Assembly: GCA_951406725.2 (NCBI GenBank)
Contig: OX597820.1
Span: 105,028,001-105,092,000, forward strand
DNA: 64,000 nt
Reading direction: 5' to 3'
Source: Octopus vulgaris
Taxonomy: Eukaryota
The position numbers and the translations under genes are program-made. Shown in pieces: positions 34,617 through 60,887 of this stretch (position 1 is its first letter; each line of letters starts with the position of its first letter). The notes under the pieces are model-generated. The model had not been told where the DNA came from and made no database searches. It saw only the letters and a program-made list of their open reading frames with translations.

Positions 34617-34664
34617 TTTACTTTTGACAATCTTTTTCTAAAAAAGTGAAACCGGTCAAGTGAA
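34617..34664 (+). ncRNA. Type I hammerhead motif with U3-A8 core
   Basis: TTTACTT-TTGACAA-T CTTTTT CTA AAAAAG T-GAAA-CCG-GTC-AAGTGAA. 7-bp helix I, palindromic helix III ACCGGT, GUC triplet. Lies in a ~200-bp insert between (TA)n runs. Confidence 0.68.
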
Positions 34665-34724
34665 TAAATATCTTTAAAATTGCATTTTGAAACCTTCTTT
34701 CATATTATATATATATATATATAT

Positions 34725-35035
34725 AATTTCAACAATTGAGGGTAAAATTAATTAATTAATTAATTTCACCAAGTATTCAGTATGCAAAGGGACCATTTAA
34801 GGCGAATTCAAATTATTACATTATATAAAAGGGCTTAGTAAAATAAATTACTTTGCCGCATACTGAACTCATTAGAAATAGCAGCTAAAAAAAACTTTTT
34901 TAAAACTATTTCCAATACTTAAAGAAAATCTCTCTCATATAGTGTTTGCTCAACTCAACTCACGAAAGTATGGGGGTAGAGACATTAAAAAATCAAATGC
35001 AAAGTAATTTATTTTACTAAGCCCTTTTATATAAT
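34725..35035. mobile_element. (TA)n-embedded element with ~37-bp perfect inverted repeat (probable Penelope-like remnant)
   Basis: ATTATATAAAAGGGCTTAGTAAAATAAATTACTTTGC at ~34820-34857 and its reverse complement at ~34999-35035. Confidence 0.6.
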
Positions 35036-35073
35036 ATATATATATATATATATATAAATAGCACAAGTGCCAG

Positions 35074-35119
35074 AGTGACTCAAGGGCCAAGAGTTTCAAG
35101 CATTAGCACTTATCAAACT
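35074..35119 (-). ncRNA. Type I hammerhead motif with U3-A8 core (left arm of a decayed palindrome)
   Basis: Minus strand: AGT-TTGATAA-GTGC TAAT GCTT-GAAA-CTC ttggccctt GA-GTC-ACT. A degenerate mirror copy lies on + at 35125-35172. Confidence 0.6.
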
Positions 35120-35202
35120 TATCAAAGCTTGATAATTGCTAACACACAAAACCCTCAACCCTTGAGTTACTTTGTTGCTTCTGCTAAATGTCAATAAAAA
35201 AG

Positions 35203-35251
<49 letters not shown>

Positions 35252-38200
35252 TCTGATCGTGGCCATTGCCAGACTCGCTTGGCCCCCATGCCGGTGGCAC
35301 ATAAAAAGCACCATCCGACCGTGGCCGTTGCCAGTGCCGCCCTGACTGGCACCCATGCCGGTGGCACGTAAAAAGCACCATCCGATCGTGGCCGTTGCCA
35401 GCCCCGTCTGGCACGTAAAAAGCACCCACTACACTCACGGAGTGGTTGGCGTTAGGAAGGGCATCCAGCCGTAGAAACATTGCCAGATCAGGCTGGGCCT
35501 GGTGCAGCCTTCTGGCTTCCCAGACCCCAGTTGAACCGTCCAACCCATGCTAGCATGGAAAGCGGATGCTAAATGATGATGATGATGATGATGATATAGT
35601 ATAGTCAAATGGTTATGAAATCCACTCCATAATTCTGAGGTCAAGGTTCTATACCACTATATAACATCATGGGTATATATCTTCTCCCCTACCATACCCT
35701 ACCCTAGCTGCAAATCAACCCAAGTGTTGTGAGTAAAATTGTGTAAACAGAAACTGTATAGAGGCCAGTTGAATGGATTGTACTTGAAAGGTAACCTTGT
35801 CATGCACTGTGAAACATCTTGGTTGAGTATTAGTTCAACAGACCTGTGTACCTAAGAGTAGACATGTCTGTAGAATACTCAGCCACTTACATATTCAACT
35901 GAATCCTCATCTTCTTAACATCACATGACAGTTATAAACAAGCATCATCATCATACAAGCAGTGCCCTGTGTTTCTTATTTGGCCAAGAGGAAATATTAA
36001 TGTGCCTGGAAACAGATTTGAGTTGTCAGCAGGAAGGGCATCCAGTTATATAAAATCTACAGCAATGAATTCTGTCTGATTCATGTGAACATGAAAAGTA
36101 GATGTTAAAATTAAGAGAAGGAAGATGATGATGATGGTTTATATATACACATATATTTATTATTTCAATATTATATAACTGAAGAACTTAATGACACCAA
36201 CTTGTCTGCACCACAGTTAAACAAAACAGAATTGAGAGATGGGGAGTTGGTTAAATAACATTGTTTTCTGAACGAAGGACAATTACAGATTAAATTGCTA
36301 GATTATACGACTGCTACAAAGTCAACTCAAGCTACAAAGCTAGAGAGACTTAATAGATGAAATGGGTTGGGTTGTCATCCTTGAAAGCTGAGCAGTCCCA
36401 AGTAGTAAGACGATACAAATGTCACCTAACAGAGAGAGAAAGAGAGACAAGGATAGATAGAGACAAAGATATGTGGCTGGCAACTGAATGCTAAATAGTC
36501 ATAAGCACCAGTATATAAAATACATGAAACAAAAGGTTGGGGTTAGAAGTCAACAGAACATAAAAGTTAAAGAGAAAATTTACCAAGAAGAATTTACCAA
36601 TTCTGTGTTTGTATACACAAGTGTGTGAGAGAGAGAGAGAGAAAGAGAGAGAGAGAAAGAGAGAGAGAGAGCATGTGCACATGTCTGAAGAGTAATGGTT
36701 TGATAAAATTACATAATATGTGATATACGTGTAATCAACATCAACACTCGCACAAAAAAATACCTTTGATGGTATGTTTGGCTAAATTCAACTTAGGATA
36801 ATTCTTTCCCACTCTTAATAAGATAAGGAAATCATAGAACACACATACATGCACACACAGTTGTCTATATACGTGTGAGTAAAAGCCATTTTAATTTGTT
36901 AACATTATTATACAACATGTGGTAATAATTGCTGTTGTAACAAATTGTCAAGCTAACTTCAGTTTTTGTACATTTGCATAAATTCCATCTTTAGCTTTGA
37001 TCAGATCAATACATCTCAAGCAATGAATTTATAATAATTCTAAATGCACACACAATCAATCATCATCATTAATTTAATGCCCGTTCTTCATTTCTCACTA
37101 TTGATTGGATATCTCTGCTGAAAAGCATATTACCATCTTGTAATTTCTTTTGCAAGGCTCTTCCTCTGGTGGTTTGACAAATGCATGTACACATACATAT
37201 GTACATGCATATATTAACATATCCATTGCTTACTAATTAGTCACAAAGTGAAGATAACTTTTTAGCCCAGCAGCTTTTCCCACAACTATTACAGAAATGT
37301 CTGCTCTCAAGTAAATGCAATGTGGAATCATGATATTTGGTATTGTGTACAAACATATGTCCAATTTTACAGCCAAACAACAATACAGATAAAATGTAGG
37401 TTTAACTCTTTAGCATTCAGATTACACTGTCAAATGAAATGTCTATTTATTCACATTGTTTTGAATTAATCAATCATTGTTTTATAGATAAAGGATTTTT
37501 ATGATGTAATTGTTTATTTTTAGAATGATGTTACAGAGTAGAAATGAAAAGCTGGATCTGACAAATATGAACTTAAAACAGATAGCTATCTGGGCTGGAA
37601 ATGGATGGTTTAAATGCTAAAGGATTAAGAATTAGATTCTTAAGTGACATTTTGAATATGCTAGGACCATAATGATGATTGTTATTTTCCAAAAGATATC
37701 ATTAATTTCTGGATTTTATTTGCAATTTTGTCATCCCTATTCAATAGGATTTACAACCCTATTCAATATGCTGCCAGCATATATGAAAGAAGGAAAGCAC
37801 ATTTTTTTAAAGTTTTACCATATACTGATGTTTTAGGAATCACAGAAGGTTTTCCAAGACAAGGCTGATAAAGAACAGCTTTTATCAAGATTTATCATTA
37901 CGCTTAACATGTCACATGCCAATGAAATATCTACAAGAATCTGAAGATCTTTTTCATAGCATACAGCAATATCACAGTCACCAGTGTGCAAGAGATTTCT
38001 TATCAGAGATATATAACTGTATCATTTAGAATTGTGTTGTTTCAGATTGAGTAACAAACCAGTTGTGTAATAGCATGTATAAATAACCTCAGAGCAAACA
38101 CTGAAAGCAATGGAAAAAATTATTGTAAAAGGCAAAAGGAGATAGGAACATGTCTGTAACTTGCTGCAGAATAAATATAACAAAGGATTCTGCCTGTAAA

Positions 38201-40199
38201 GTACACTGTTCAGTTGTTTTTTTGAGGAGTGTGATTGGGAGGGGGTCTGTCTATGTTTATATCATTTACTAATATATAAGAGATACACACACATATAAGT
38301 CCATACGATTTTTGTCTACCCAATTTCCGCAATGTACTGGTCAACTTCAGCCATTGTAGAGAGCTATGTGGTTCTGAATTTGATCCAAATGTGTGGTCAA
38401 GGTACCACAAAACATAGCTACAAACTTCTTAACCATATAGCCATGCCAACCTATCCATGCCCACCACATCTAGTTTTCCTTACCCTTCAGTTTAATTAAA
38501 TAAAACACTATGTCATTAGTAAGGATATAAATATAATTTCTTCACTTTGGTTAACCTTAAAATGGTTGTCTAAACAATAAAAGACTATCTTTGGCATATA
38601 GTTGAGCTGACAAAGGAGGTTCATCTATCTAGTCACATGTTCTGCTTAACACATAAAGCACGATGGGCCACAATCATGTCCCAGATAGATGCATTTAATT
38701 TATGGGCGATTGTTGAGGTCTAATGTCACTCAAATGCTCCAATACCCCCCGGAATGCAAGAGAACTAATAGTTCAACAAATAATTTTTCAGACGATGTAA
38801 AACTTGCCACCATTGTATACTAAGAAGATATTTTAACTATATTTTGTTTTTTTATGTGCGCATGGTAGTCCCATTTTCATAAAATGCACTCAGCAATCCA
38901 TGCTATGTAAGTGCAAATCCCAGCACTTTATGGGCTAACAAGGTTACCAAATCTCCTATATCAAAAGTATTTTTTAAACATTGAAATAGAGACTAAAACA
39001 TTGTTACAGAAATGAAAGCTAGGGGAAGAGATCAGAGTTTTCTTCCTTACATTAGAGAGATACTTGCTTCCTTGAAAATGAATGTAAATAAGGTTGGTAA
39101 AATTTTTAATCAATGTAGTCCTGCATGGTATTGTATCTTACAAGAAGTTAAGAGTTCAAGACAATATTATCAGGAAGATATGATCACTATTATATAAGAA
39201 ATGATTCCAGTACTAAAAAGTATCAATCCAAACATAAAAATATATCAATCTTTAAATTATTAACCCTTTTGAGGCCATATATCTCATAAAAAGAAAACAC
39301 TGGTTGCTTGATTCATTCAAGTTAGCAAATAGTCAAGAATTTGGAGGTATTTAATAAAATAAATTTTCACTATTAAGCTCATGTTTGGAACAAATAGTTC
39401 ATACCTAAAATTATGAAGGAAAATTTTATTTAATTTAAATGTGATTACTTTAACCCTTTTAATACCAACCAACTTAAGATTGCTCTTGATTCTGTGATAC
39501 AAACTCCATGTTTTAAAGTGATCTCAAAAACTTTCAACAGAATTTTATGTTAATTTATGCTTGAGAAACCAGTTTAATAATGACAAAATTATTAAGTTCT
39601 TCATTGTTTTCAAATTAATTGAAACAAAGTCAGTGTAGTTTAAATGAAATATGGTAACAGAGGAGTTAAAACAAGAGGGGTTTTTTTTATATAATAAAAG
39701 CTGAATTCTTATCAAAAATGTTGAAACAATTTTAGTATGGAGCTGATTTTTGAGGTTCATGACAGACATTAATTCAATTAAAAAACAAACCAGAGAATAA
39801 ACAGAATGGAACATTCATTAAAAAGAACAGGCGTCTAATTATTCAAATAAATGCTGGAAAAGTATGAAGAGATATGAAACTTGAAAAGTTTTCTTGGTCA
39901 CTGCTTGCTATATATTGCTATTTCTTGTTGAAATAACAATGCCATATTTCTGTTGAGATACATTGCCTTTGTTTCAATTATTTATTAAAGTAATCAAGAA
40001 TTTAGTAAAATAACTTTTGTTATTATTAAGCTGGGCTTCAGAACATAACATGAAATTTTGATTGAAAGCTTTAATTAAGATGGCTTTAAAACAAAGTTTG
40101 TATCATAGTACCAGAGGCCATCTCAGGTGAGTTGGTATCAAAGGGGATAAAGAAATATGTATCAAGAAACAAACTGTTTATTTGAGATATACATTGTAT

Positions 40200-40680
40200 C
40201 ATGTTGCTGTTTAGCTGTATGTCATCCCTTAACAAGCAGACCTATAATAGTCAGACATTCTAACTGCAACCATCTCAACCATTTGCTTTTTTTGTGTTTT
40301 TGTAGTTTTTTTTTTGTTTTTTTTTGGTAATGAGTATAGGTCTATATTAACTAATCCATCTTTTTCTTAATCCTTTAGCATTCAGATTATTGTCAAATGC
40401 AATACCTATTTATTTGAATTGTTTTCTATTAATTATGCCTTATCTCATAGCTTCGACACTTTGATGATGAGATTATCTATTTTAGAGCGATATTATAGGG
40501 TAGGTGTGAGAGGCCAAATCTAGTCAGTCTCAACACAAAATGGGTAGAATATTTTGGTTGGATATAGCCAGTTTAAATATTAAAGGATTAAGGCTGGTTG
40601 GGTGTGATTTAAAAAAAAAAATTAGCTGATATTTCTAGCAGTTTGAATGACCACATAAACCTCTCTTTGGCGGCATATTA
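40200..40680 (-). mobile_element. Old SINE-like family D, split by the TTAA-MITE at 40367-40590; other copies ~3180-3360(-), 42520-42680, 45370-45480, 56050-56220, 63710-63920(-)
   Basis: Shared AGAAATAGCAGCCAAATCTCC.TCAAATCACA...GCTGGAATG.CTTTGATCATA.GTCTGCT motif. Confidence 0.6.
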
Positions 40681-41368
40681 GATGGTAGTTTGGAAATGTA
40701 GAAAAGAGGTGGTAGCTAGTAAGACAAGCGGGGCTGCCAGCTGGTGACAAGAAGAGTTTCAGTGGATGGCAAACAGATGAGAAATTACATGTACTTTAAA
40801 AAAAAGGCTCCCCACTTCTCTGTGTGTGTGTGTGTGTGTGCACGCACGTGCATGCTGTATGTGTGTGTTTTATATTATGTAGTGTTGTAGAGAAAAATAA
40901 GTACTTAAAATGCACCTACTTATTTTTATGTATGTGTGTGCATGTGCACACTCATGTGTATACATGTTTTGGTTTGTTTTTTTTATTCTTTAAGCCACGA
41001 GAGAGGGCAGTAATCATGACCCATTATAGAACCCCAAGACTGGTGGGAGGGAGGAAGGAAGATACCTTCAAACCAGCAACCTGGCTTGAATGTTTGAAAA
41101 GAATGGACTCTACTAAAGCATTCAAGGAACCAGGTGGTGGTATTAAATGGAGCCACAGGTTAAATCTACCCCCAAGTAAGTCATGAGGAAATATGAACTC
41201 AGAACAAATACCATTCTGACATTCCTACAGTTCTACCAATCCAGCACTTTGGACTGGTACATTTTTATTGACTCTAAAAGGATGAAAAATAAAGCTGACC
41301 ATGGCAGGATTTGAACTCAGAGCACAGTAAGTCAGAACAAATACTGACACTAACAACCATACCAATTC

Positions 41369-41411
<43 letters not shown>

Positions 41412-42674
41412 AAATTAACTAAGATAGCTATCTCAAGAACTTTGGACTCAAGAGAGAAGTCATTAAACAAATTTGGTAATATTTAAATAACCAATATGAT
41501 CTCAAATGGAGACAGCTAGATAGATTTTGTCAAAGAAAGAACATGCAGACTAAAAAACTGGTTACTCAGTCATAAGAAAGTACTCAACAAACTAGTTTTA
41601 AATAATGGTTTCTCATTCAGGCAGAGGCTCAGCAATTTTGAAGGAAGGCTTTTAGGCAGTACCATCAGTCTTTCTACTGATTGATACATTGTTCTATCAA
41701 CCCCCAAAGGATATAAATTATTTGATGTAAATTTAATTTGTTTGTATTTTTAATTATTTTTTACTTTTATAAAGCAAAAAACTGGCAGAATCATCAAAGC
41801 ATCAGGAAAAGTTCTTTTTGGCATTTCTTTGGGTTCTCTACATTCTGAGTTTAAATTTCACCAAGGCCAACTCAGATTGTAAAATGCCAAAAAATATGCC
41901 ACAGAGCTTATTTTTTTTTGATGCTCTAATGATTCTGCCAGCTCACTGCTTGATAAAAGTAAAAAAATTATAAAAAGCAAACAAATTAAATTTACAATAA
42001 ATAATTTCCTCATAAGTTACAGATTGTATAAATCTACACTTAAAGGCATTAACATATGTTCTTAACCATCCACACATGTCACTTTTACATCTTTCTGGTG
42101 TCAAACATCATGATATTATATATACTTGTACATATAAGTCACAGCAGCTGTAAATTTACACTTGTAATATTTTATTATTACACTTGTAATATTTTAGATT
42201 GAGGCCTTTGATCTATAAATCACATGTTACTTTCTGTAAATATTGTGTGCAATTTCTTTCACAACCGAGCAGAAATAAAATATGAACTTGGTAATACTAT
42301 TTAACAAAGTCACAGAACAATAGATATCATAGCAATGAGTTTCTGTAGTCTTTGTCCAGATCAAAGACACTAATCATTGGTTTTGAATCATCTATCTTGA
42401 TTGGCTGATGATATGCAGCATCTAATGGGAATTAGGATCAGAGCCAGCTAATAGAGAACTGCATATAGATATTTTGCACATGAGCAAGGTGTGTGTGTAT
42501 ACATAAAAAGCCATTTATAGTTACTCGAACTGCAAACAATAGCAGCCAAATCTTCCTCAAATCACATCCTACTGACTTATAAAAGAACAAGGGTCATTGT
42601 CCCATGGAATATAATCCTAAATATGCAAAAGACAGAATGTCACAGCTGGAATGTCTTTGAGTACAGGTTTACTC

Positions 42675-43862
42675 AATTGTGCAAAAGCTAACCAAGGTTA
42701 GATTTGAATTAAATTAGCATGTGCACTTGAAACAGCATGAGATTATAATACATCGTTTCACACTTGTATATACATTAATATCACATTGGTATTTTCTTCA
42801 AATGTTAGCTAAACAGTGTCTTGAAGATGAACGGATTCTACCCAGTTGAATTACAACATAGAGACAAAGTTTGTAAGAGGTATACACCCTTATGACTCCA
42901 ACACATTATAAATAAAAACTGGTCTATAAAGCATACTTAAGTGATTAATAAAGTTTCTTTGAAGAACTTGATTTGACAGAATTATATAATTTAATTAACT
43001 TTACATTAATTTCCAGGAGCTTGCGCTAATGAAATCAAATCTAGTTTATCAAATTATAAGTTTAAAAAAGAAACATATCAAATTTCTTCTAACCAAAAAT
43101 GTTCTGCTGCAATCTTAAGTGAAGTTTAGTTCTTTGAACTAAAATGGCTGACTTGAAATATAAAAAGGGACGTAAAAACCCCAATAACTGGGGAATAATT
43201 TTCCTTGCATCACCACCCTGCCAGCATATGCCAACTGTACATTATCCAACACAAAGAAATGGTAGATATATAAACTATATACTCGTACTCTTTTACTTGT
43301 TTCAGTCATTTGACTGCGGCCATGCTGGAGCACCACCATTAATCGAGCAACTCGACCCCGGGACTTATTCTTTTTGTAAGCCCAGTACTTATTCTATCGG
43401 TCTCTTTTGCCGAACCGCTAAGTAACTGGGACATAAACACACCAGCATCGGTTGTCAAGCAATGTTAGGATGACAAACACAGACACACAAACAAACACAC
43501 ATACATATATATATATATACACATATACGACAGGCTTCTTTCAGTTTCCATCTACCAAATCCACTCACAAGGCATTGGTCGGCCCAGGGCTATAGCAGAA
43601 GATACTTGCCCAAGATGCCACGCAGTGGGACTAAACCTGGAACAATGTGGTTGGTTAGCAAGCTACTTACCACACAGCCACTCCCGCTACATGAAATTAA
43701 TATCTGCACTTAAAACATTTTAATTAAATACCAATCTGTATAATAATGTATATACAAGTGTGAAATGATGTTATATACATTGGTATTTTAATCCCATGCT
43801 GTTTCAAGTGATTACATTAATTTAATTTAAATATAGCCTTGGCTAGATTTTGCATAAATTGT
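42675..43862. mobile_element. Old fold-back/MITE-like element with ~140-bp imperfect TIRs, containing a younger SINE
   Basis: Left arm ~42675-42810 (CACTTGAAACAGCATG..TTTCACACTTGTATATACATTA) mirrors ~43710-43862. Confidence 0.72.
43283..43687 (-). mobile_element. Full-length SINE family A
   Basis: Reverse complement of the 7643/52707 copies. Confidence 0.9.
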
Positions 43863-44499
43863 AAATACTTTGTTCAACAATTTCTATACCAGAAAGAATA
43901 TCTATCTTTTCAGCTTAGCTCAAAATGTTGAGGGAAGGGGTCACTGAAGAGACCAAATTAGATTGAAACAGTCTCAGACAATCTGTCAACATTCTAAGCA
44001 AGCCCTGTGTTTTTTAACACACAAGTCTCTTTGAGAAGTTTCTCTAAAACAAAATATTACAGCTAGTACTCTTTCACGTCTGTACAGACATTACAAAATT
44101 ATGAGTCATAACACTAGCATTAATTTCATACAAACACACGCCCTAACTCAACAATAAAGTAACAGGTTGTGTGAAATATAGAGCAAATTATAACCCAAAA
44201 ATTAAAAAAAACCTCTACTTCATCTAAAACAACTAGAGGAATAGTTATCTGAAGAAATCAAGTAAAAAAAACTGCCAGAAATTGTAAGAGGATTAGGTTA
44301 TTAAAATCAAACTCATTAAAGGCAACACACAAAACCAATGAAAGCATTTTTAGTTTGAGCTGACAGAGAAAGAAAACACTGTATCTAGTTTCTGTGGTTG
44401 GATACAGAAGAAACAAACATTGTATGTACATCCCACAAGTGTAATTTTTTTTCAGCTAATTACCGTACCTTCCTCAAATCAACAAGCATCTGAAAAGCT

Positions 44500-44850
44500 T
44501 ATAACATCTATCCAGCTGTTATCAAGAATTGTCTTATCTAAACTTCTCTATGGCTGTGAGTCATGGACTAAGGTACTAGAGAGGAAAATGAACATTTTCC
44601 AGCAAAGATACTTGCATAAGATACACCACACTTCATACAGAGACTGTCACTTACCTGAGAATACTAAGAAGATCAGGGCCCTGGAGCATACTAAAGTCAA
44701 TTGGTGGTGAGCAGAAGGGTAGAGTGACCTTGGGCAATGTGATCAGGATGGATCTCCCCCAACTTTCCACCAGTGTTTCCAATGGTCTCTGTAGGCCCTC
44801 AGAAAGAAAGGGTTTCCAAAGAAGAAATGGCTGACAATATTTAGACACTT
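44500..44850 (+). mobile_element. Highly decayed LINE (RTE-like) RT C-terminal fragment
   Basis: IVLSKLLYGCESWT...MNIFQQRYLHKI followed by a W.G.VIRM-like segment. Confidence 0.6.
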
Positions 44851-44994
44851 GGATCAGTTTTCAACATTGGTCACAGATGTATTAAATAACAACTTCAATA
44901 CCATTTCAAATATATCGGCTCTAAATTATCATACATTAACAAAGTATTGCATTAATTAAGAGCAATGATTTTGTTTTTTGTTGCTTTTGTTACC

Positions 44995-45350
44995 TGGCTG
45001 TATAGCTAAGACCATCTGGCATCCATGAGGTTTCAGGTTCAGTCCCAATACATAGCACCTTGGGCAAGTGTCTATTATAGCCGTAGGTTGACCAATGTCT
45101 TGTAAGTGAACTTGGTAGATGGAAATTGTATGGACACCTACCATATGTGTGTCCTTGTGTTTGTCCACACCCATTGCTTGACAAATAGTGTTTGTTTATA
45201 TCTGCGTAACTTAGTAGTTTGGCAAAAGAGACCAACTGAATAAGTAGAAGACTTTAAAATATAAGCACTGGGCTTGGTTCATTTGACTAAAACCTTTCAA
45301 AGCAGTGCCCCAGCATGGCTGCACTCCAATGACTGAAACAAGTGAAAGAT
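44995..45350 (+). mobile_element. Older, diverged SINE family A copy
   Basis: GGTTCAGTCCC..CACCTTGGGCAAGTGTC ... CCCAGCATGGCTGCA..AATGACTGAAACAAG. Confidence 0.8.
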
Positions 45351-48300: not shown

Positions 48301-48944
48301 CTTGCATTATTAAGGATGCCAACTAACTAGCAAAACAAAGAAAATGACCTCTCAACTGAATAGAGTCGTATTAGTGAAAGAGGTGGCTTTGTACCAGGTG
48401 TTGAGAGGCTAAAATATGATAGAGGGACAGGTACAAGTGTTTTTGTATAGAGGAGATACATGGTTACCCCACATTACAAGGGTGGGGAGAGTAGATGGAA
48501 AGAAAACAAAAACATTATACTCCCCTCCAAACTAATGTATTAATAATAAATAAAATCCCTGGTTGATAAAGAAAGCATTGTTCATCATCTCCATCATTGG
48601 TTTAAGTTCCATTTTACCAAGCTAGCATGGGTCAGACATTTTATCAAGGCAGATGCTCTTCCCATTACTAACCCTTACCTGTTTCCAAGTAAGCTAATAT
48701 TTTCCTTTGGCCAGACATGTTTTACAACTATCATGCATTGTCAGGGATACATTCACACAAACATATACAAAGGACTTCTTTTCCTGTAACAAATCCACAT
48801 ACACAGTTTTAGTCAGCCTAGGTCTATAGTAGAAAACATTTACCCAAGGTACTATGCAGTGAGACTGAACCTAAAACTATGTGATTGTGAGACAAACGTC
48901 TGAACCATACAGCCAAGCCTAACACATAGTCCAAGAGAATTAAT

Positions 48945-49990
48945 GCAGCAACTTAAATGCAATTCTGAATTTAAATTCCAACAAGATTTGACTTTACTTT
49001 CATCACTTCGGAGTATCAACTAATAAACAGAGTCGATTCAATTAACTATACTTTCCTGCCTGCAAATCTATGGCTTTCTGCCAGTGTAACAAATCAACCC
49101 CATTATTTAAAAGAAGCCATCATCATCATCATTATTATTATTAATCTGAATGTGGCAAGCTAGCAGAATTGTTAGCAAACAGGACAAAATGCTTAATGGC
49201 ATTTCATTATTTTTACATTTTGAGTTCAAATTCAACCTAGGCTAACTTTGCCTTTTATCTTTGCGAGGTAGATAAAATAACTAGTAGTTAAACACTGGAG
49301 TCGATGTAATTGACTTTCTCTCTCCCCTGAACTCACTGGCCTTGTGCCAAAATTTGAAGCTATTATTATTAATCTTAATCTGTGTTTATTATTACATATT
49401 GTGCTCCTCTAATTGATGATTATTATTATTATTATTTAGGATGGTGAGCTAGCAGAATCATTAGCACACTGGGCAGAATGCTTAGTGGCATTTCATCAAA
49501 TTCCACCGAGGCTGACTTTGCCTTTCAATCTTTCAATCTTGAGCACTGGGGTTGATGTAATTGACTTACACTTTCCCTGAAATTGCTAACCTTGTGCCAA
49601 AATTTGAAATCAATATTATTATTATTATTATAGTAGGGAGCAGGCAGAATCATGAGCACACTTTGTGGCATTTCATCTATCTTTACATTCTGAGTTCAAA
49701 TTCCACTGAGGTTGACTTTGCCTTTCATCTTGTCACAGTTGATGAAATAAATACCAGCTGAATACTGAGGTCAATGTAATTGACTACCACCTCCACACAA
49801 AATTTCAAGCCTTATGCCTGAAGTAGAATTTTTTTTTTTATATAAAAGCAGCAAACCGGCAGAATCATTAGTGGCATTTCTTCCAGTTGAGTTCAGGGTC
49901 CCTAAAATAAAGTACAAGTATTGATGTAATCAACTAACCTCTTCCCCTAAAGTATTGGCATTGTACCAAAATCTGAAACAATTACTACTA
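48945..49990 (+). mobile_element. Head-to-tail array of about 5 SINE family B copies
   Basis: Heads near 49153, 49442, 49636 and 49848, plus a headless copy at ~48960. Separated by (TTA)n. Confidence 0.82.
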
Positions 49991-50540
49991 TTATGTCTTC
50001 CTTATATCCAGATCTACTTCTACATGACTCATGTATTGTCTTGTTATTGTTTGGTTACTTGCTACTGATCTGTTGAGTTGAAGCTGTTTATAATGTTCCT
50101 TCTGCTGCCTTTATTTTGGTTGTTCCTTTGTTGGTTCATACTAGGACAGTAGTTATTTTCTTTTATTTTTTACTACATGTGTTAAATGTGTTATCCATTC
50201 TTTTATTGAAATCGCCCTATAAGACTTAGAAACATAACTAGGAGTGATATATTTCAGACAATGTATGCATGAGTAATTGCTGTTTTAACTATTATTAAAT
50301 TTTTCCTCAAGTATTTTTAATTCTCAGAATCACAATGTATTCACTGGCATAGAAAGCTAAGTCAGTTTCCAGGGTTATATATGCAAAAGTTTTACAGTAT
50401 CATCAACTATGACAAAATTCACTGAAAGCAGAAGGCTGTTTTCATTGATATGTGTAACAGAGACTCACAAATATATGATTATATTCTGACAAATACAAAC
50501 CTGCGCACATACAAAGACATATGTATGTATATATGCAAAT

Positions 50541-50575
<35 letters not shown>

Positions 50576-51477
50576 GAGATGAAGCAAGAGTTGTTTTACA
50601 GGAATTTCTTGTAAGCAAGCAAAATCTGAATGATTTCTCTGCCCTCTAATTCCACTCTACCACAACCTCCAACAAAACAGAGAAAACAAATCACAATTCA
50701 AATAACACCTATTGCCTGCTCAGCAAAAAATTCTATACCTAAATAAATCTTGTGTCATCAGAAATTATTTCATAGCTTTTATGAAGAGAGAGAGAGGGAG
50801 GAAGGGAGAGAGAGAGAGAAAGAAAGAGAGAGATTAATTTCTTTTGACCAAGCATGAAACCCAAATAACTAGACAATTACAGCAGACCAAATCTACTGAA
50901 TTACACTCCTCTTTTTTTTATGAGCTATACCTACAGGCATTGGCAATCATGGACCTCCAGCTCCTTCATGTCCTATACACAACATCAGCCTTTCTGTAGC
51001 TAGCTGGAAAACTATTGAAATATCTTCCCAGTTTGTCTTTGTCAGCTTTTACTTTCTGTAACCCAAGTTCTGAAACACAAACTTTGTTTTAATAGTAATT
51101 TAAATTAAAACCCTCAATCAAAGTAACTATGATAATTTATGTTACAAACCTCAGCTTAATAATGACCAAATTATTCTAAATTCTTCATTATTTCAAACTT
51201 AATGGAAACAAAGGCAGTGTATCGCATTAAAAGAGCTAAGGGCTACATTTGTTAGTCTATCTGTATAGGATGTCTTCAGCAGTCACCTAAGGAATCACAC
51301 TTCTGTGTAACAATGGTAACCTTTAGCTTTTGTTTATTGATTTCCCAGGTCCTACAGCCATATGTAGGAAGAGGTTCTACATAGGTGTGGTTGTGTGATA
51401 ACTACATGGCTCCAGGTTCAGTCCCACTGCATGGCAGCTTGGGCAAGTATCTTCTTCAATCAAAGCCTTGTGAGTAA

Positions 51478-51558
51478 AATATGTAAAATTTGAATGAAAT
51501 TGGTTGTGTAGTTCTCAAGTTTTAGGGAAACAGACAGACAGACACACATTCTCAGTTT

Positions 51559-51575
<17 letters not shown>
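51478..51575 (-). mobile_element. Helitron-like 5' terminal fragment abutting a truncated SINE A head (51385-51478)
   Basis: Minus strand TATATAAAACTGAGAATGTGTGTCTGTCTGTTT...AACCAATTTCATTCAAATTTT, same layout as the 6161-6680 element. Confidence 0.55.
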
Positions 51576-51622
<47 letters not shown>

Positions 51623-51696
51623 TAAATACATATACATGCATATAAGCATACATATATACTTACATACATATGTACATATCTATACACACACACACT

Positions 51697-51748
<52 letters not shown>

Positions 51749-52008
51749 CACATACATATAGAGAGAGATAGAGAGGGGGTGATTATGCAAATAACCAAAT
51801 TAGATTGTATTGAATATAACAGTTTGGATATGAAATACAAAATATCTATATATGTAGACATGCTAAACAAGAGAAAGCAAAAGAGTGAAGACTTCTAGAT
51901 GATGAATACTTAAGTATAAATATAGAGATATTTATATTAATAGATCCAACTTACACAAAGTACAAGCAACAGAGAAAATTAAAGGAGAGGAAGAAAGGGG
52001 TTATAAGT

Positions 52009-52128
52009 CCAACAGCTGTTTCTAGGGGCTCAGAGATACATCATAATGTTGGTAGATGTAGTTCATCACAACATGCAGCCATAATGGAAGCAATCAACAT
52101 TGGATAAATCAAGCCTCCATCATCAGGG
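52009..52128 (-). ncRNA. Hammerhead-like motif with ~100-nt extended stem II
   Basis: Minus strand CC-CTGATGA-TGGAGGCTT...GAGCCCCTA-GAAA-CAGCT-GTT-GG. Palindromic helix III ACAGCTGT, inner AATGTTG/CAACATT helix; helix I is only 2 bp. Confidence 0.55.
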
Positions 52129-52706
52129 TAGAAAAAAATCTTACATTTCAGATCCTAATGCAGAGAAGCTCAAAGGTAGAATGATTAAATGTGGAGAGTT
52201 AGCAGTATATTTGACAGAATAATCTGAATGTTAAAGGGTTTTAGTATCCAAACCTTTCCCATGTGTGTTCAAAGGAGTAACTGAAAAGCTACAACCTGAA
52301 ATCTAACCTGGATCACATATTTAGTGTACCAGGTGTTTACCATTTACATTATGATGGGGTACTCATGTATCTTCTCTATAGCAAGATACCTGTTCCTGTC
52401 GTTCTATCATACTTTAGGCTCTCTACTGCTGCCACAAAGTCATTTCCTTCAATACTGCATTCCCACTCTATCAAAGACTCTTGCAATCACTTGGTGATCT
52501 CACAAGTACCGATGCCACAAATAAAGAGCCAAGTACACTCTGCAGCGTAGCTGACATTACAAAGGACACCCCGCCATATAAACTTTGCCAAAGCAGATAT
52601 TAGAGTCCAATGCAACCTTCCAGCTCATCAGATCCTTTTGAACCAGCCATGGTAACACAGAAGACAAGCATTATTACTTTATACATTATTTAAAAGATAA
52701 TAGCAG

Positions 52707-53100
52707 ATAGTGGCTGTGTGGTAAGTAGCTTGCCTACCAACCACATGGTTCTGGGTTCAGTCCCACTGTGTGGCATCTTGGGCAAGTGTCTTCTGCTATA
52801 GCCTCGGGCCGACCAAAGCCTTGTGAGTGGATTTGGTAGACGGAAACTGAAAGAAGCCTGTCGTATATATGTATATATATATGTATGTATGTGTGTGTCT
52901 GTGTTTGTCCCTCTAGCATTGCTTGACAACCGATGCTGGTGTGTTTACGTCCCCGTCACTTAGCGGTTTGGCAAAAGAGACCGATAGAATAAGTACTGGG
53001 CTTACAAAGAATAAGTCCTGGGGTCGATTTGCTCGACTAAAGGCAGTGCTCCAGCATGGCCGCAGTCAAATGACTGAAACAACTAAAAGAGTAAAAGAGT
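52707..53100 (+). mobile_element. Full-length SINE family A
   Basis: Nearly identical to the 7643 copy. Confidence 0.9.
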
Positions 53101-54537
53101 ATAAAATTAATAATGATTTCAAATTTTGGCACAAAGCCAGCAATTCTGGGGGAGAGTGTAAGCTGATTATATCAACCCCAGTGTTCAACTGGTACTTATT
53201 TTATTAACCCTGAAAAGATGAAAGGCAAAGTCAACTTCTACAGAATTTGAACTCAGAACGTGAAGACAGGCAAAATGCCACTAAACATTTTGCCCAGTGG
53301 TCTAATAATCCTGCCAGCTTGCTGCCTTAGATAAAGCTAATAATAGTAACATTCTTGAAATATAAATCACTATAGTATTACATACAAGATCTCATGGAAA
53401 TTAAAAACAAAAACAACAAAAATAAGCTAAGTCATGGGGGAGGAGTCAGTATTTCTGTATCAACTTACCCCTTCAAATACCACAACAGACAAAAATAACA
53501 GAAAATGAATTCATATTCTATCATGTATGCCTTTCAACCATGCCACAAAATTCTATATAGCATTCAATAACAATCAGAATAAGAGAACTTATTAACATAA
53601 CAATCACAACATCCACATTCTGTGGAAGTACATCATAATGATAGCCATCACCTGACCTTGAGATATCCCCCCTCTCGTCTCCCACTGCAAGGAAAGTGGT
53701 CAGTGAAGAGTGGGGTGGACTTATATTCAAGCTCAATTCAAAACAGCAACTCAGAAAGGAAATATGAAAAATTAAAAATAAAATATTTAAACAGAACTAA
53801 ATCACATTTTGAAAGACATGCAGGCCAAGAGAGAGAGAGAGAAAGAGACAGACAGAAATAATACACAGCACTACACATATTCAATATATATATATAGTAT
53901 GTGTGTGTGTGTGGTTTTGGACTAAACCACTCATATATGCATATTTTTGTACACCAGTGTTAAAATATAATTATTTCTTACTAACCTAAGACATTTTTGC
54001 TTCAAATTTAAATTAAATTTTTATTGATGGATTACCATGATGTTAAGTGAAGTAATGAAAGAGCAATGAAAGAGCAATGAAAGAGCCAGTCAGAGTCTAT
54101 AAATGTATGTATACGCATACATGCACACACATGCATGCACACACACACACACACACACAAACTTGTCTATTCTTTCCCAAAATAGAAAATACATCCAATA
54201 AACATGTTTTTGTCAGATCAAAAAGAGGGAAAAAAACATCCCTTTAGATAAAGTCAATTAATTCATAGCCGGGCAGTGGGACTGAGAATCTAATGAAAAT
54301 AGAGAGTGGATAAGTACATGAAGAGAACAGTGAGAATAGGTTGGTAAGTGGGAGACAGACAGACAGACAGATAGATAGAGAACAGACAGACTGACAGAGA
54401 AAGAGAAATGTACACAGACAGAGATTAACAGAGAACAAGAGAAATAAAATAATAAGAGATAGTCTGATAAGAAGGTGGTGAAAATGAAATCTATGACTTT
54501 TCATTGTCAAAATATAGCAAAATTAAGTGCATCCAAT

Positions 54538-54586
<49 letters not shown>

Positions 54587-55440
54587 CACTTTCAAAAGCA
54601 TAAAAAGAACCTTGTTTGCTGAGGCATTATAATATCTCTTAGACTATTTCTATATTTAAATCTTAAATATTTTCTGGGCAAACAGAAAGAAAAGAAAGAA
54701 AAATGAAGAAAAGAGTAACAGCAAGAAATGAAGGGGAAAAAGATAAAACAATCATAATTTTAGGATTCATTCCCGTTTTATTGTCTTTCATTTGCTTCAG
54801 ACACAAATAGAAATAGAACATCCATTATTCCAATAAAATAACACTGCTATTTACATGTCATTATGCCAGACATCATGGCTGTTCTCTCACGCTACAGGTA
54901 ATTGTTTTAAAGAAGTATTGATTCTTAATTAAGCATGGAGACTTAAGAATCCAGAGTATTAGCACTTTACAGTAAAGTGGTTCCAAACAGGAATCAAAAC
55001 TGGACTTTATGCAAAAAGCATTTACCACATTTGACATGGAAAGCAAGGAAAACAGCAGCAGGCATGGATATGGATATGATGAAAGCTTTAAAATGGCTCA
55101 TTATCATACCTGTCTCACTTATCTAATCAGATTCTAAAGGATGATGATGTGATTTCTGATCACTAGTGTACCAACAATAGAAAAAGAAATGGGGTGTATT
55201 AAAGCAGAACATAACTTTTCAGTGTGCTGCAGGTTTGATTGTGTGGCTAAGAAGTTTGCTTCCCAACTTGGTGGCTTCAAATTTAAACCCATTGTGCAAC
55301 ACTTTGAACAAGCGTCTTCTATGAAAGACTCAGACCAACCAAAGTGTTAGGAATGAAATTTGGCAGTTAAAAGCTGTGGAAACCATTTGCAGGACCATTC
55401 TTGTTTTTGAGTAGAAAGCTTAATCTGTGGCTTGGTTTAA

Positions 55441-55658
55441 TACCACTGCCTGGTCTTTGTGAACGTTTAGTAAAATGCTCTGTTTTAAACATTTAGGTGG
55501 GGCCTCTGGTATGTTAACTTACTCTCACTAGTCACAGAGGCCCTGAAAATACCACTGCCTGGTCTTTGTGAACGTTTAGTAAAATGCTCTGTTTTAAACA
55601 TTTAGGTGGGGCCTCTGGTATGTTAACTTACTCTCACTAGTCACAGAGGCCCTGAAAA
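55441..55658. repeat. Perfect 2 x 109-bp tandem duplication
   Basis: Unit TACCACTGCCTGG...CAGAGGCCCTGAAAA starts at 55441 and again at 55550. Confidence 0.95.
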
Positions 55659-56218
55659 GAGTTGTAAATGATGTTCTTCCTCCCCCAAGTCATAAAAAAA
55701 AAAAAAAATACAAAATAATTTATCCAATGTTTAGAAATAACAAAGATAATGCATAAAGATCAAACAGGATAAAGTTCAGATGAGCAAGACAGAATAGTTT
55801 AAGGTTATAACTTAGTATGGAACTTACAGCTGTAACATTTTTGTGATAAAGCAACAGTAAAAGAAAATCCATTGACAATAAACAAACAACTTGATCTGGT
55901 TCTAAATAAACTATGAAAGTTTGAAATTTTTGAAAAAGTCAGTTTAAAGAATTAACTCTGAGCAGGAACTAAGGCCATGCCTGCAACTGTGGAGACATAA
56001 TCAGAGATGATCCTAGGTACCTACTAACACAAGGCAGTGAAGGAGCCTCCCCACTACCACTTGACTTACTAGAAATATCAGTCAAATCTCCTTCAAATTA
56101 CACTTTGCCAGTAGTTTTAAGAAAAGAACACATTCAATAATACAGACCTACATAATCCTAAAAAGATGTCATGGAGGAAATGCTCTTGATCATATATCTG
56201 CTCAATCAGAGTTGACCT

Positions 56219-56261
<43 letters not shown>

Positions 56262-57876
56262 CGTGCGTGTGTTTAGAGCTTTGTCACTTTAGAAATAAGA
56301 GATCTTTTAAATGTTTCTTGTGACAAATATTTGTGTGATTATGTAACGTGACATTCACTAAATCGCAATTTTATTTTGACATCATCCATTATGAAGACTA
56401 CAAGAAGGCAGATAGCTGACAATACTTTGATATAAACTTCCACAATATATGCTGTTTCACAAGAAACCCATATAACACAAATATATATATATTTAGACTT
56501 TTATATACGTGCAAACATTACACACACAGATACACACATACACATACTATTGTTACATAATATGCATACACTCAGAAAGACACATATAAACATACATATT
56601 TGCAAATATATGTATACACATGTTCATGCACACACATGCACATAAATATACATATACATGAATTCATTAATAAACACCCACACAAACACACATATACACA
56701 CATCCTCAATTAGCCATTGCCTTTTTAGGGTGTCCAATATAACAGCTGCTAGAGTGATTAGTCACATCACTTCTGCAGTGAACCATTTCTGATATTTCAT
56801 CCTTAATAAAAAATAAAAAAACATACATTAAAAAGCAAGTACTAAAATAGAAAAATCATTTAAAAAAAGAAAAAAAAAATACTATGAATATATAGAATTA
56901 TGCATGAACTCAAGTCATAAAACTTATATACATAGAGTTACTGATAGTCTAGCTTAGATATAGAAGACAATTTTCTCTTTAAAAAAAACAACACATACAC
57001 ATATATGTTTATGTGTGTGTTATTTTATACATATATATAGTTTGTACTTTATTCTACTTGTAACTCCTACGTACCTGTAATATCACTTAAAAACAGTGCA
57101 CTGTTCAAAGCTAACTTTAAAGTAGTGTTTCATTTTACTCACACACATCTATATCGCTTAATGCATACAGTATAAAGATACAAGCCCTAATAATTTCATG
57201 CATTGGAGAGATACGGGTCTAGGCAGACTTTTATAACATGCCTTGTGTCTCCAGGCTATTTTCATGATCTGAGAACATAGAATATTCAATTTACAAATCA
57301 GGATACTGGAACAAGAGACTTCATGAGGAAAAATGTGAAGGTAGATGCAAAAAGTAGAAGGGTGAAAAAACAGAAGAAAAGAAAAGGAAAAAAGAAAATT
57401 AGAATTATGTTGCCTTTGACCATAAAACCATAATATGCTGTGGAATTCAGTCAAGTGGTGGATCAAGAATGTTCAGCTAATATAGTCATATGGACAGATT
57501 TCTTTTGATGAACTGGAGGACATCACCCTCTCTAGATTAAGCAGCTGTCTCACAGACTTTGGGCCCCCCTCCATTGAATTATTCCACAACATCTAGCTTT
57601 ATTATGGTTTTACACATGAAGGAGACATATCTCTGACTTTCCTCTTTTTTTCTTTTTCTTTTTGCCCTTCCACGTTTTGCACCTCTTGCTTCAGCATCCT
57701 GATTTGTAAATTGAATAAGACATGTGCCCAGAGCTTGAAAATTGCTTGGAGACACAGTCATGTTATAAAAACCTGCCTAGACTCATGTCTCCAGTGCATG
57801 AGACTCAGTAATTCGTATGATTTTTATCTGTCACTGGATGGAGTTATTTCATTGATCTTACCATAAAGGAATAGTA

Positions 57877-57931
<55 letters not shown>

Positions 57932-58392
57932 TGGTGTACCAGCATGACCTCAGCCCTGGGCTGAAACAAGTAAAAGATATATATATGCAAAACTTTGATC
58001 TGAAACTGTATGTTCAAAGCAATACACTTATAGTTGGGAAGGAACAGATTTTCTACAGCTTGATGCACTTCCTGCCACACACCCTTCATGTTTCCAAAGC
58101 AAGGTAATATTCAATATTTACCTATGACTGGAAAGGTTTTCGTAGAAGACTGGAAACAAAGGACATCCTTTGTACATCAGTGACATTTATTTACAATCAT
58201 CACAAGTTGTCAAAACAAGGAATATGTGCACATAAACATGTGTTGTTCTTAAAGATTATTTTAGCTGATTATGTATATGCATGCAGGTCAGATGCACTTG
58301 AATTTCCTGCAATGTATTGTAGTATAACAACCTGTTATGAATTGGGCTCTAAATTACTGAGAGCTTATTTTTTGATGTTTATACATCAGTTT

Positions 58393-58463
<71 letters not shown>

Positions 58464-58568
58464 GGAGTAAACACATAAATGTGAAACAAGGTGGAAAAAA
58501 AAAGAGTACTCAAATACCAGTGGTAGAGTAATATGCTTTATTTTAAGCAGCAGAAAATTAAACAAAAT

Positions 58569-58606
58569 CTGTTACTCTGAGTTTCTCGTTGCCGTTCATC
58601 AGACAG
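58569..58606 (-). ncRNA. Identical hammerhead motif on the minus (vinculin-sense) strand
   Basis: Exact reverse complement of 58623-58660. Confidence 0.75.
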
Positions 58607-58622
58607 TTTTTGCTAGCAAAAA

Positions 58623-58660
58623 CTGTCTGATGAACGGCAACGAGAAACTCAGAGTAACAG
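58623..58660 (+). ncRNA. Type I minimal hammerhead motif with canonical CUGAUGA/GAAA core
   Basis: CTGT-CTGATGA-ACG GCAA CGA-GAAA-CTC A GAG-TA-ACAG. GNRA-capped stem II with A.A at 10.1/11.1. Confidence 0.75.
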
Positions 58661-58692
58661 ATTTTGTTGAATTTTCTGCTGCTTAAAATAAA

Positions 58693-58726
<34 letters not shown>

Positions 58727-59790
58727 GTATCTGAGAGACACCACCATGCCGAAATAGTAGTCAAATCCCTGACTCTAAAAACCACCTAAAATGTTCATAT
58801 TGCACCACGAGATAAGACAGAAAGATAAGACAGAAAGATAAGACTTGATAATATCGATATTTAAATATCGATATTATCCTTATTTATAAATTTATATATA
58901 TGTATATATCCACACATGATGAACTTCTTTCAGTTTCTGCATACCAGATCCATGCACAAAGCTTTGGTTCACCTGGATCTACAGAAGACTTGCCTACGAT
59001 GCCAAAACCATGTGTTTCAAAAAGAAACTTCTTAACCATGCAGTCATTCATGTACCTAAAAGTAAACGTTGCAATACCAGGAATCAAACCCAGGCTGCCT
59101 GGATTAAAGTCAGGAAGTATAACTACTGGCATGTAGTAACAAATTTAGTACATTACTTTTATTTGCTGAAGAATTTACTGTTCCATTCCAGTGATCAAAA
59201 TTTAGGAGTTTTCAGATCAAACCTAATTCCAAACCAATCAATGATAATATATCAAATTACTATATATGAAATAATATCTTTATTTAATTAGTATGCAATA
59301 AAAGGGCAAAGCTAATAGACAGTAATTTACAAATGCTATAAGCACTGGCATGCCAGAATACATTCGCAGAAGTTTTCCCACACATATACATAGCTATGTG
59401 TACACATGAATATAATCATGCATTCACTGAAATCATATATACACACACAACTGGCTCTCTATCAGTCACAGTGATGAGTGTTCTAGTTGATCCAAACAAA
59501 GGAACTGCTGGCTTGTGAAATTAAAGTGCAAGTGGCTGAGAATTCCAGACATGTGCACCCTCAATGCAGTTCTCAGAGAAACTCAGCATAACACAAAATA
59601 TGACAAGGCTGGCCCATTGAAATACAGGTGTTCCTCAGTTTTTCCACCTGAGTGAACTGGAGCAACATGAAATAAAGTGTCTTGCTCAAGGAGATAATGC
59701 ACCACCAGGAATCCACCTTAACAGCTTTACAATCAAAAGCCAAATACCCTAACCCCTAAGCCATGTGCCTTCACATATACACATACATAA

Positions 59791-59867
<77 letters not shown>

Positions 59868-60419
59868 CACACACACATCAAGTAGACATAAGTGCTCATT
59901 TAGACTTTCACATACATAGATACTGACATACATGTATTTAATAATATGTACAATTACAAATACATAAAATACATATATAATTAAATTCATATAAGACTAA
60001 TTACATAAAAATTCAATTATATCCATAATTACAAGCATACATACAATCTTCTCCAAGACTATAATATGAAAAAATTCTCAAACAAAACCAGTTCCACAGG
60101 CCAATACTATTTTATCACAACATAACAGGAAAGTCTATTAGTGAATATGTAAGGGAGATAAGGGGAGAAAGACTCTTTTTTTTAATGCTTCAGTAAACTA
60201 AAAGCAAAACGAAAATATATGATTTAAAAAACTACAAAGGGCAATTACATTTTGTAGAAGGGAAAATAATGATTTCTTTGGGTTAGGAACAAAGCCAATA
60301 TACATTACATTTTGTTTTGTTTTAGAGCAGAAGAATATAGTCAATATAAGATAAGACTAGAATCAAAGGAAACTGATGGTGGTCTACATTGGCATGAATT
60401 AATCCATTTAAATTTGTAG

Positions 60420-60650
60420 ATCATCATCATTGTGTTTCAATGTCTATTTTTGCATGAGTCAGACAAGATTCATTCAAGCAGATTTTCTATGGCCTGATAT
60501 CTTTCCTGCCCTGTTGCCAACTCTCAACCATTTCTGAGCAAGGTAATATTTTCCCCATGGTCTGCTACATTTCCATGGGGAATTGGAAATGAAGGACACC
60601 ACTTGTGTGAAGGTGATGCTCATTTTATATCGCTTGCATGATGAGACACA
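60420..60650. repeat. Interspersed repeat family E; copies ~2680-2890, 9905-10110, 35940-36110 (opposite strand), 48590-48740, 58050-58220
   Basis: Shared GCAGATTTTCTA..GCC.GATGCCCTTCC...TGTTTCCAAG.AAGGTAATATTT.CCC..GGCCAGACATGTTTT. Confidence 0.7.
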
Positions 60651-60751
60651 GTATAAAGATTCTTTGGAAAACTTTCTGTATTGTTAGAAGTTTTATTACC
60701 CTTTTTATTTTCTACTTCTGTACTACAATGCTTCAAGCAAACTACAATGTT

Positions 60752-60792
<41 letters not shown>

Positions 60793-60838
60793 TAAGAAAC
60801 AATTATGAACTTTTTTATTACATTTAACTTTTTAAAAT

Positions 60839-60887
60839 ATTTTTGATAAGGTTCGTTTTTTTCAAGAAGAACCGAAACATGTAAAAT
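60839..60887 (+). ncRNA. Type I hammerhead motif with U3-A8 core
   Basis: ATTT-TTGATAA-GGTTC...GAACC-GAAA-CAT-GTA-AAAT. Perfect 5-bp stem II with G10.1-C11.1, palindromic helix III ACATGT, GUA triplet. Lies in a ~160-bp insert between (TA)n runs. Confidence 0.72.

What the first reader, a model, noticed from the sequence alone, without database searches (positions are those of the whole stretch)
34617..60887. Three unrelated hammerhead motifs share the compensatory U3-A8 core (UUGAyAA instead of CUGAnGA)
Seen: 34617-34664(+) TTGACAA, 35074-35119(-) TTGATAA and 60839-60887(+) TTGATAA each sit in the exact core position between helix I and stem II, followed by GAAAC..GUH and a complementary helix I. 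Their stems are entirely different from one another. Established: C3 and G8 form a tertiary Watson-Crick pair in the active hammerhead, and a U3-A8 swap preserves it. Inference: both changes together at three independent loci look like covariation rather than decay. This suggests a U3-A8 hammerhead class that is common in this lineage and would be missed by CUGANGA-based searches. AT-biased mutation is the alternative explanation.
Basis: partly seen in the sequence, partly recalled or inferred. Interest (0 to 1): 0.85.

Follow-up and report, generated by a model that had tools for sequence, protein, structure and literature searches.

The report
Variant-core hammerheads of Penelope-like retroelements
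The three motifs are real hammerhead-ribozyme-shaped sequences at the ends of three high-copy repeat families (two shown to be Penelope-like jumping genes, the third likely one); their U-A core pair is fixed in each family rather than decayed, but this variant is already in print and self-cleavage here is only predicted.

Summary
Observation confirmed; the novelty claim is not. All three motifs are present. Each belongs to a separate high-copy repeat family of a 2.8-Gb animal genome. With positions 3 and 8 left free, 279 of 300 listed genome copies are U-A and 0 are C-G, so copy-by-copy AT decay is rejected. Families 1 and 3 are the 3' repeats (pLTRs) of Penelope-like elements with RT, Zn-finger linker and GIY-YIG; family 2 has the same anatomy but no ORF link was found. 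U3-A8 hammerheads are published, in Penelope-like elements too (Cervera and de la Pena 2014; Perreault 2011), and this scan noted the same on two other genomes. The three loci are not shown to be independent switches: families 1 and 3 may share one. The window's copy at locus 2 has a decayed stem II. More interesting than the finding itself: this genome holds families fixed for all four Watson-Crick pairs at 3-8, including A3-U8 (175 exact matches), and a U3-A8 family with fixed A13C (1,801 matches). I found neither in print, but could not read the key 2017 paper. Cleavage is untested.

The parts
34500..34705 (+). Family 1: 5'-truncated 3' end (pLTR) of a Penelope-like element, between (TA)n runs
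   Evidence: 40 of 1,994 candidates scored, 96-98% identical over 201 nt; linked through a CA-rich 3' UTR to RT and GIY-YIG in sense in L228
34617..34664 (+). Type I hammerhead motif, U3 (34624) - A8 (34629), U.U at 10.1/11.1, palindromic helix III; predicted cut after 34657
   Evidence: 94 of the first 100 of 418 genome matches are U-A, 0 C-G
35056..35195 (.). Family 2: head-to-head fold-back pair of 3' ends of an old repeat, between (TA)n runs; likely a Penelope-like pLTR
   Evidence: 40 of 865 candidates scored, best 80% identity; palindromic arrangement in relatives; no ORF link found
35074..35119 (-). Type I hammerhead motif, U3 (35116) - A8 (35111); stem II decayed in this copy; predicted cut after 35077
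   Evidence: 89 of the first 100 of 107 genome matches are U-A, 0 C-G
35125..35171 (+). Second, more decayed arm of the same fold-back (core 35129-35135, G12 changed to A)
60791..60952 (+). Family 3: 5'-truncated 3' end (pLTR) of a Penelope-like element, between (TA)n runs
   Evidence: 40 of 1,387 candidates scored, 93-98% identical; lies 3' of the GIY-YIG frame in sense in L011 and L091, twice in tandem in L091
60839..60887 (+). Type I hammerhead motif, U3 (60843) - A8 (60848), G10.1-C11.1, palindromic helix III; predicted cut after 60883
   Evidence: 96 of the first 100 of 489 genome matches are U-A, 0 C-G; no variant at 5% or more at either position in 4 of 4 runs laid

Best explanation
The three motifs are type I hammerhead sequences at the 3' ends of three repeat families, two of them shown and the third likely to be Penelope-like retrotransposons, and their U3-A8 pair was already present in the master elements that were copied; they are predicted to cut the element's RNA weakly, likely as dimers. 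Shown: the anatomy, the family membership, the fixed U-A state, and for families 1 and 3 the position downstream of an RT - Zn finger - GIY-YIG frame, with one hammerhead in each of two tandem pLTRs 4,128 nt apart in L091. Inferred from the literature on these elements: a transcript through tandem pLTRs carries two hammerheads whose 6-nt palindromes pair into a shared helix III, each cutting after N17 to trim the precursor RNA; most genomic copies are 5'-truncated, single and dead on arrival. Inferred: selection in the master lineage keeps a Watson-Crick pair at 3-8 but not its identity; C-G probably became U-A by two transitions early in one subclade, with AT pressure a plausible source.
For: Fixed state: 279 of 300 listed copies U-A, 0 C-G. 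PLE context: GIY-YIG over the Pfam cut-off and a sub-threshold RVT_1 match in the family-3 frame; L091 tandem structure; L228 for family 1. The sister subfamily with many 781-aa open frames keeps the core and stem II while loop II, the cleavage triplet and the flanks change. Even 1-Mb sample: 17 of 20 hits Watson-Crick at 3-8 (U-A 7, C-G 6, G-C 4), mismatches 3, against 3.6 hits per Mb in 20 shuffles of which about 1 Watson-Crick; 14 of 17 after collapsing families, permutation p 2.5e-5. Fixed A3-U8 family, 99 of the first 100 of 175. Co-folding pairs the helix III palindromes between two copies of loci 1 and 3. Published precedent.
Against: No cleavage data. The hammerhead fold is not the predicted minimum: about 4 kcal/mol above it as monomer and 6-9 kcal/mol as double hammerhead for loci 1 and 3; locus 1 has a competing hairpin that buries U3-U4. 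Family 1 lacks G10.1-C11.1. In PMC9901934 only the G-C swap rescued a type III hammerhead. Within family 2 the stems are 90% paired in 15 copies but show no covariation beyond shuffles (183 of 500 as high). A related family with fixed A13C reached 1,801 exact matches, which hints that efficient cleavage may not be needed. No ORF link for family 2.
Confidence: 0.85

Rival explanations
1. The motifs descend from hammerheads and keep the 3-8 pair and helix III palindrome for a structural role (RNA dimerisation or recognition by the element's RT), with cleavage negligible or dispensable in these families.
For: Fixed A13C in the largest family found, U.U at 10.1/11.1 in family 1, weak predicted folds; Cervera 2014 measured only low activity and left other functions open; Craig 2021 note that PLE clades without canonical hammerheads proliferate.
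Against: Core letters outside 3, 7, 8 and the UH site are kept across families with unrelated stems, which is what selection on catalysis predicts; a pairing rule at 3-8 belongs to the active fold.
Confidence: 0.25
2. The three loci are canonical C3-G8 hammerheads that decayed copy by copy under AT-biased or CpG mutation.
For: Both changes are GC-to-AT transitions in a window of 29-45% GC; the window copy of locus 2 is visibly decayed elsewhere.
Against: 0 of 300 listed copies are C-G and single-step states are 14 of 300; families 1 and 3 are only 2-7% diverged; G3-C8 and C3-G8 families coexist in the same genome.
Confidence: 0.02
3. The U3-A8 core arose three times independently.
For: Stems are unrelated; the family-1 and family-3 proteins are only about 43% identical; a further U-A family with canonical 6-bp/4-bp anatomy looks like a different kind of element.
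Against: In a 21-row GIY-YIG tree all 8 rows labelled U-A, plus the L320 (U-A) and L324 (A-U) rows read in the same call, fall in one 14-row group (90/91, not starred), with the only C-G-linked row outside. Family 2 could not be placed.
Confidence: 0.2

Closest known systems
U3-A8 minimal hammerheads of Cercyon Penelope-like elements, Schistosoma mansoni (Cervera and de la Pena 2014, PMC4209133)
   Same: Type I topology, U3-A8 core, place in pLTRs, short palindromic helix III, mostly single truncated copies, pairs on opposite strands 100-700 bp apart.
   Different: Here the elements carry a Neptune/Nematis-type Zn-finger linker; families 2 and 3 lack the extra base between A9 and 10.1; family 1 has U.U at 10.1/11.1; family 2 has a 4-bp helix III; U-A appears at least as common as C-G in the sample.
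Natural C3-G8 to U3-A8 covariants (Perreault et al. 2011, PMC3088659)
   Same: Same compensatory change, reported there as natural.
   Different: Rare variants there; here fixed in several high-copy families.
Small dimer-cleaving hammerheads of Penelope-like retrotransposons (Lunse, Weinberg and Breaker, RNA Biol 14:1499)
   Same: Short palindromic stem III and dimer model, as summarised in the review PMC6765202.
   Different: Could not be read; whether it lists G3-C8, A3-U8 or A13C variants is unknown to me.
Neptune/Nematis endonuclease-bearing Penelope-like elements (as described in Craig et al. 2021, PMC8557442)
   Same: RT followed by CX4CX2C linker and C-terminal GIY-YIG, tandem and inverted pLTRs, tail on some ends, insertion in (TA)n.
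   Different: Clade not fixed against reference sequences; the youngest family shows an extra overlapping upstream frame.

Membership tests
U3-A8 minimal hammerheads of Penelope-like elements | Core N3-UGA-N7-N8-A9 ... GAAA ... UH with U3-A8 | tested here: met
   All three loci; fixed in the families
U3-A8 minimal hammerheads of Penelope-like elements | Type I topology with helices I and II closing on the core | tested here: met
   Loci 1 and 3; family 2 stems 90% paired in 15 copies, though the window copy has a damaged stem II
U3-A8 minimal hammerheads of Penelope-like elements | Short palindromic helix III allowing dimers | tested here: met
   ACCGGU and ACAUGU pair between copies in co-folding; family 2 has a 4-bp stem instead
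U3-A8 minimal hammerheads of Penelope-like elements | Located in the pLTR of a Penelope-like element (families 1 and 3) | tested here: met
U3-A8 minimal hammerheads of Penelope-like elements | Located in the pLTR of a Penelope-like element (family 2) | tested here: inconclusive
   Same end anatomy, but no RT/GIY-YIG contiguous with it in 12 stretches of 10 kb or in the 3-kb loci
U3-A8 minimal hammerheads of Penelope-like elements | G10.1-C11.1 closing pair (typical, not strict) | tested here: inconclusive
   Present in families 2 and 3, U.U in family 1
U3-A8 minimal hammerheads of Penelope-like elements | Site-specific self-cleavage after N17 | not testable with these tools
   No assay; runs available were contigs only
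Canonical (CUGANGA) hammerheads / Rfam hammerhead models | C3 and G8; match to an Rfam hammerhead model | tested here: not met
   U3-A8; no hammerhead match. Not filed here.
Neptune/Nematis-type Penelope-like elements | RT - CX2-5CX2C linker - C-terminal GIY-YIG | tested here: met
   507-aa frame in L092: GIY-YIG 28.2 bits over cut-off, RVT_1 25.3 bits under cut-off, linker motif read directly
Neptune/Nematis-type Penelope-like elements | Placement in the clade by RT phylogeny with reference elements | not tested
   Only an internal tree without references was built

The most novel reading that the evidence does not exclude
One animal genome runs a natural saturation experiment on the hammerhead core: separate high-copy retroelement families are fixed for C3-G8, U3-A8, G3-C8 and A3-U8, and the most numerous family found adds A13C at a supposedly invariant position. 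If A3-U8 and A13C are undescribed, then either the natural core consensus is looser than published, or Penelope-like elements spread well with a crippled ribozyme, and these families are the test set that decides what the hammerhead does for them.
Probability: 0.4. Interest if true: 0.55.

Novelty: new member of a known kind. Interest (0 to 1): 0.3.

Why it matters
For the finding as stated, modestly: it adds probably thousands of U3-A8 hammerheads that CUGANGA descriptors and Rfam miss, in a kind already described. The by-products matter more: four fixed Watson-Crick states at 3-8 are unusually clean comparative support for the C3-G8 tertiary pair, and the A13C family offers a direct handle on the open question of whether Penelope-like elements need their hammerheads to cleave.

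Tried and rejected
Rfam scans of the window and two sub-regions: no hammerhead, only miRNA look-alikes from hairpins and microsatellites. Folding z-scores uninformative. An early idea that family 2 has a native hairpin hiding its core was dropped: that upstream stretch comes from fold-back copies; the native upstream gives a bipartite helix I of 3 + 5 bp. The apparent clustering of family-2 5' ends at helix I was an effect of the query and was not used. No ORF link for family 2. Sequencing runs: no RNA holder on record, contigs only, so nothing on expression or cut sites. First pair count used wrong columns and was repeated; first dimer energy evaluation was invalid and was repeated. Literature searches with no hit: hammerhead + C3U + G8A, hammerhead + A13C, hammerhead + A3-U8/A3U8/G3C8/U3A8/AUGAnUA; hammerhead + U3-A8/G3-C8 gave 2 papers; hammerhead ribozyme + octopus gave nothing on such motifs in the listing. 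Lunse 2017 and Przybilski and Hammann 2007 are not held. Fewer PLE families than planned could be followed to their hammerheads, so the tree labels are sparse.
Full report
Setting. The window is G000:C7:105028001-105092000 of a 2.80-Gb assembly in 227 contigs, 29-45% GC and rich in (TA)n and (CA)n runs. Its short repeats recall octopus SINEs; that label is from memory and was not tested.

Observation. A descriptor with positions 3 and 8 free found loci 1 and 3 among 4 window hits, against 2.1 hits (0.25 U-A) per shuffle in 40 shuffles; locus 2 was not called because its stem II is damaged in this copy. Rfam gave no hammerhead and folding z-scores of six stretches lay between -0.91 and +0.77. 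So the window alone is thin evidence.

Families. Each motif belongs to its own repeat family bounded by (TA)n: 1,994, 865 and 1,387 first-look candidates, 40 scored in each case, at 96-98%, up to 80% and 93-98% identity. Because best hits are biased toward the query, I counted exact patterns with 3 and 8 left as N. Family 1: 418 matches, first 100 listed 94 U-A, 3 C-A, 2 U-G, 1 G-A. Family 2: 107 matches, first 100 listed 89 U-A, 3 U-G, 3 G-A, 2 C-A, 2 U-U, 1 G-G. Family 3: 489 matches, first 100 listed 96 U-A, 3 U-G, 1 C-A. C-G: 0 of 300; reversed controls 0. Limit: exact flanks cannot see C-G sisters with other stems. Contigs of 4 runs under four organism codes laid on family 3 showed no variant at 5% or more at 60843 or 60848, while flanks and loop II varied (contigs only).

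What carries them. In L011 and L091 family 3 lies in sense just 3' of a frame with RT thumb, CX4CX2C linker and GIY-YIG. L092 holds 507 aa of it: GIY-YIG above the Pfam cut-off, RVT_1 below it at E 1.5e-5. L091 has the textbook arrangement: inverted tail, truncated upstream copy with hammerhead, full element, second hammerhead 4,128 nt on, then (TA)n. A GIY-YIG search gave 148 matches of 150 scored, many in 781-aa open frames; that young sister subfamily (88% protein identity) keeps the U3-A8 core and stem II while loop II, the cleavage triplet and flanks differ. Family 1 joins through a CA-rich 3' UTR to a second RT/GIY-YIG element, about 43% identical, in L228, with the same GIY-YIG inverted in L229. 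Family 2 has a native upstream region of several hundred bases, a tail, fold-back and tandem forms and a bipartite helix I; stems are 90% paired in 15 copies without covariation beyond shuffles; no coding frame was found contiguous with it in 12 stretches of 10 kb.

Genome-level covariation. In 100 evenly placed 10-kb stretches (999,700 bases) a strict descriptor gave 20 hits: U-A 7, C-G 6, G-C 4, U-G 1, A-A 1, A-G 1; the reversed control gave 2. Twenty shuffles gave 3.6 per Mb, with U-A 0.55, C-G 0.05, G-C 0. Collapsed to 17 family units, 14 are Watson-Crick, permutation p 2.5e-5; three of the U-A hits look weak and may be chance. Following other GIY-YIG families to their 3' ends gave a family with A3-U8 (175 exact matches, 99 of the first 100 A-U) and a U3-A8 family with C at position 13 (1,801 matches; first 100: 96 C, 4 U, 0 A at 13, and 97 U-A at 3-8). 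A G3-C8 family was G-C in 8 of 8 copies held; its coding partner was not identified. Both new families escape the strict descriptor.

Independence. In a tree of 21 GIY-YIG peptides chosen from those held (133 columns, midpoint root, no references) the 8 rows labelled U-A, and the L320 (U-A) and L324 (A-U) rows, fall in one 14-row group at 90/91, below the tool's star threshold; the only C-G-linked row sits in a separate 100/99 group; 10 rows have no assigned hammerhead. One ancestral switch for families 1 and 3 is thus not excluded, nor shown.

Mechanism. By the published model for these elements two hammerheads on one tandem transcript pair their palindromes into a shared helix III and cut after N17. 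Co-folding does pair ACCGGU and ACAUGU between copies, but the full double-hammerhead lies 6.2 and 9.4 kcal/mol above the co-fold minimum, and locus 1 has a competing hairpin. Activity is therefore predicted to be low, as measured for Schistosoma minimal hammerheads. Against a simple rescue: in PMC9901934 only the G-C swap restored a type III hammerhead.

Literature seen. PMC4209133: parts 1-2 of 4 of the text, part 1 of 3 of supplementary file 2 and a word search of the supplements; file 1 could not be searched; it reports U3-A8 in Cercyon elements with about 1,300 hits. PMC3088659: passages; natural U3-A8, stated to be active in vitro by an earlier paper. PMC8557442, PMC3884650, PMC6765202, PMC9901934, PMC6155905: passages. 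bioRxiv 10.64898/2026.07.22.740005: part 1 of 5. Lunse 2017 and Przybilski and Hammann 2007: nothing seen; they and unseen supplements may already list A3-U8, G3-C8 or A13C. Searches for those variants found no paper (one search gave only an engineered G3-C8 and the U3-A8 paper). Two earlier notes of this scan reached the same reading on other genomes; none exist for this genome.

Verdict. Real, well supported as inherited covariation, and a new member of a known kind. Interest 0.3; the A3-U8 and A13C families are the part worth following.

Noticed in passing
L319, L325, L338 (e.g. L338 + 1498); 1,801 genome matches: Largest hammerhead family found: U3-A8 core with fixed A13C (GCAA for GAAA), 4-bp stem II, palindromic helix III, 725-898 nt 3' of a GIY-YIG frame. 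Not found in print in one search.
   Followed up: partly
L324 + 2050, L337 + 3062, L008 + 2146; 175 genome matches: Family with A3-U8 core, 2-bp stem II and palindromic helix III, 291 nt 3' of a GIY-YIG frame; completes the four Watson-Crick states.
   Followed up: partly
L040 + 2112, L054, L092 + 9487, L121, L167, L202: Abundant G3-C8 family with 7-bp helix I and the extra base after A9, often as head-to-head pairs; no coding partner identified.
   Followed up: partly
L124 + 3310, L301, L322: U3-A8 family with canonical 6-bp helix I and 4-bp helix II, consistent stem changes among three copies, and a long conserved stretch 3' of the ribozyme; may be a retrozyme- or SINE-like element.
   Followed up: no
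window 31398-31630 and 58460-58700: A fourth family in the window, as fold-back pairs, with C3-G8 cores (31565-31571 with U4C; 58627-58633); source of the miRNA-like Rfam hits.
   Followed up: partly
L334 1244-2242 and 2164-4506; L335 likewise: The youngest element has an upstream open frame overlapping the 781-aa RT/GIY-YIG frame by about 78 nt in both copies seen: a second ORF or a frameshift, unusual for single-ORF Penelope-like elements.
   Followed up: no
L101 4820-5545: Tandem and inverted array of family-2 units of 130-170 nt, with junctions at the cleavage-site triplet of one unit and helix I of the next; retrozyme-like.
   Followed up: no
window 35252 onward; 7642-8013, 14444-14712, 16721-17128, 43373-43687, 52709-53090: Dispersed SINE-like repeats, recalled as octopus-type.
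   Followed up: no
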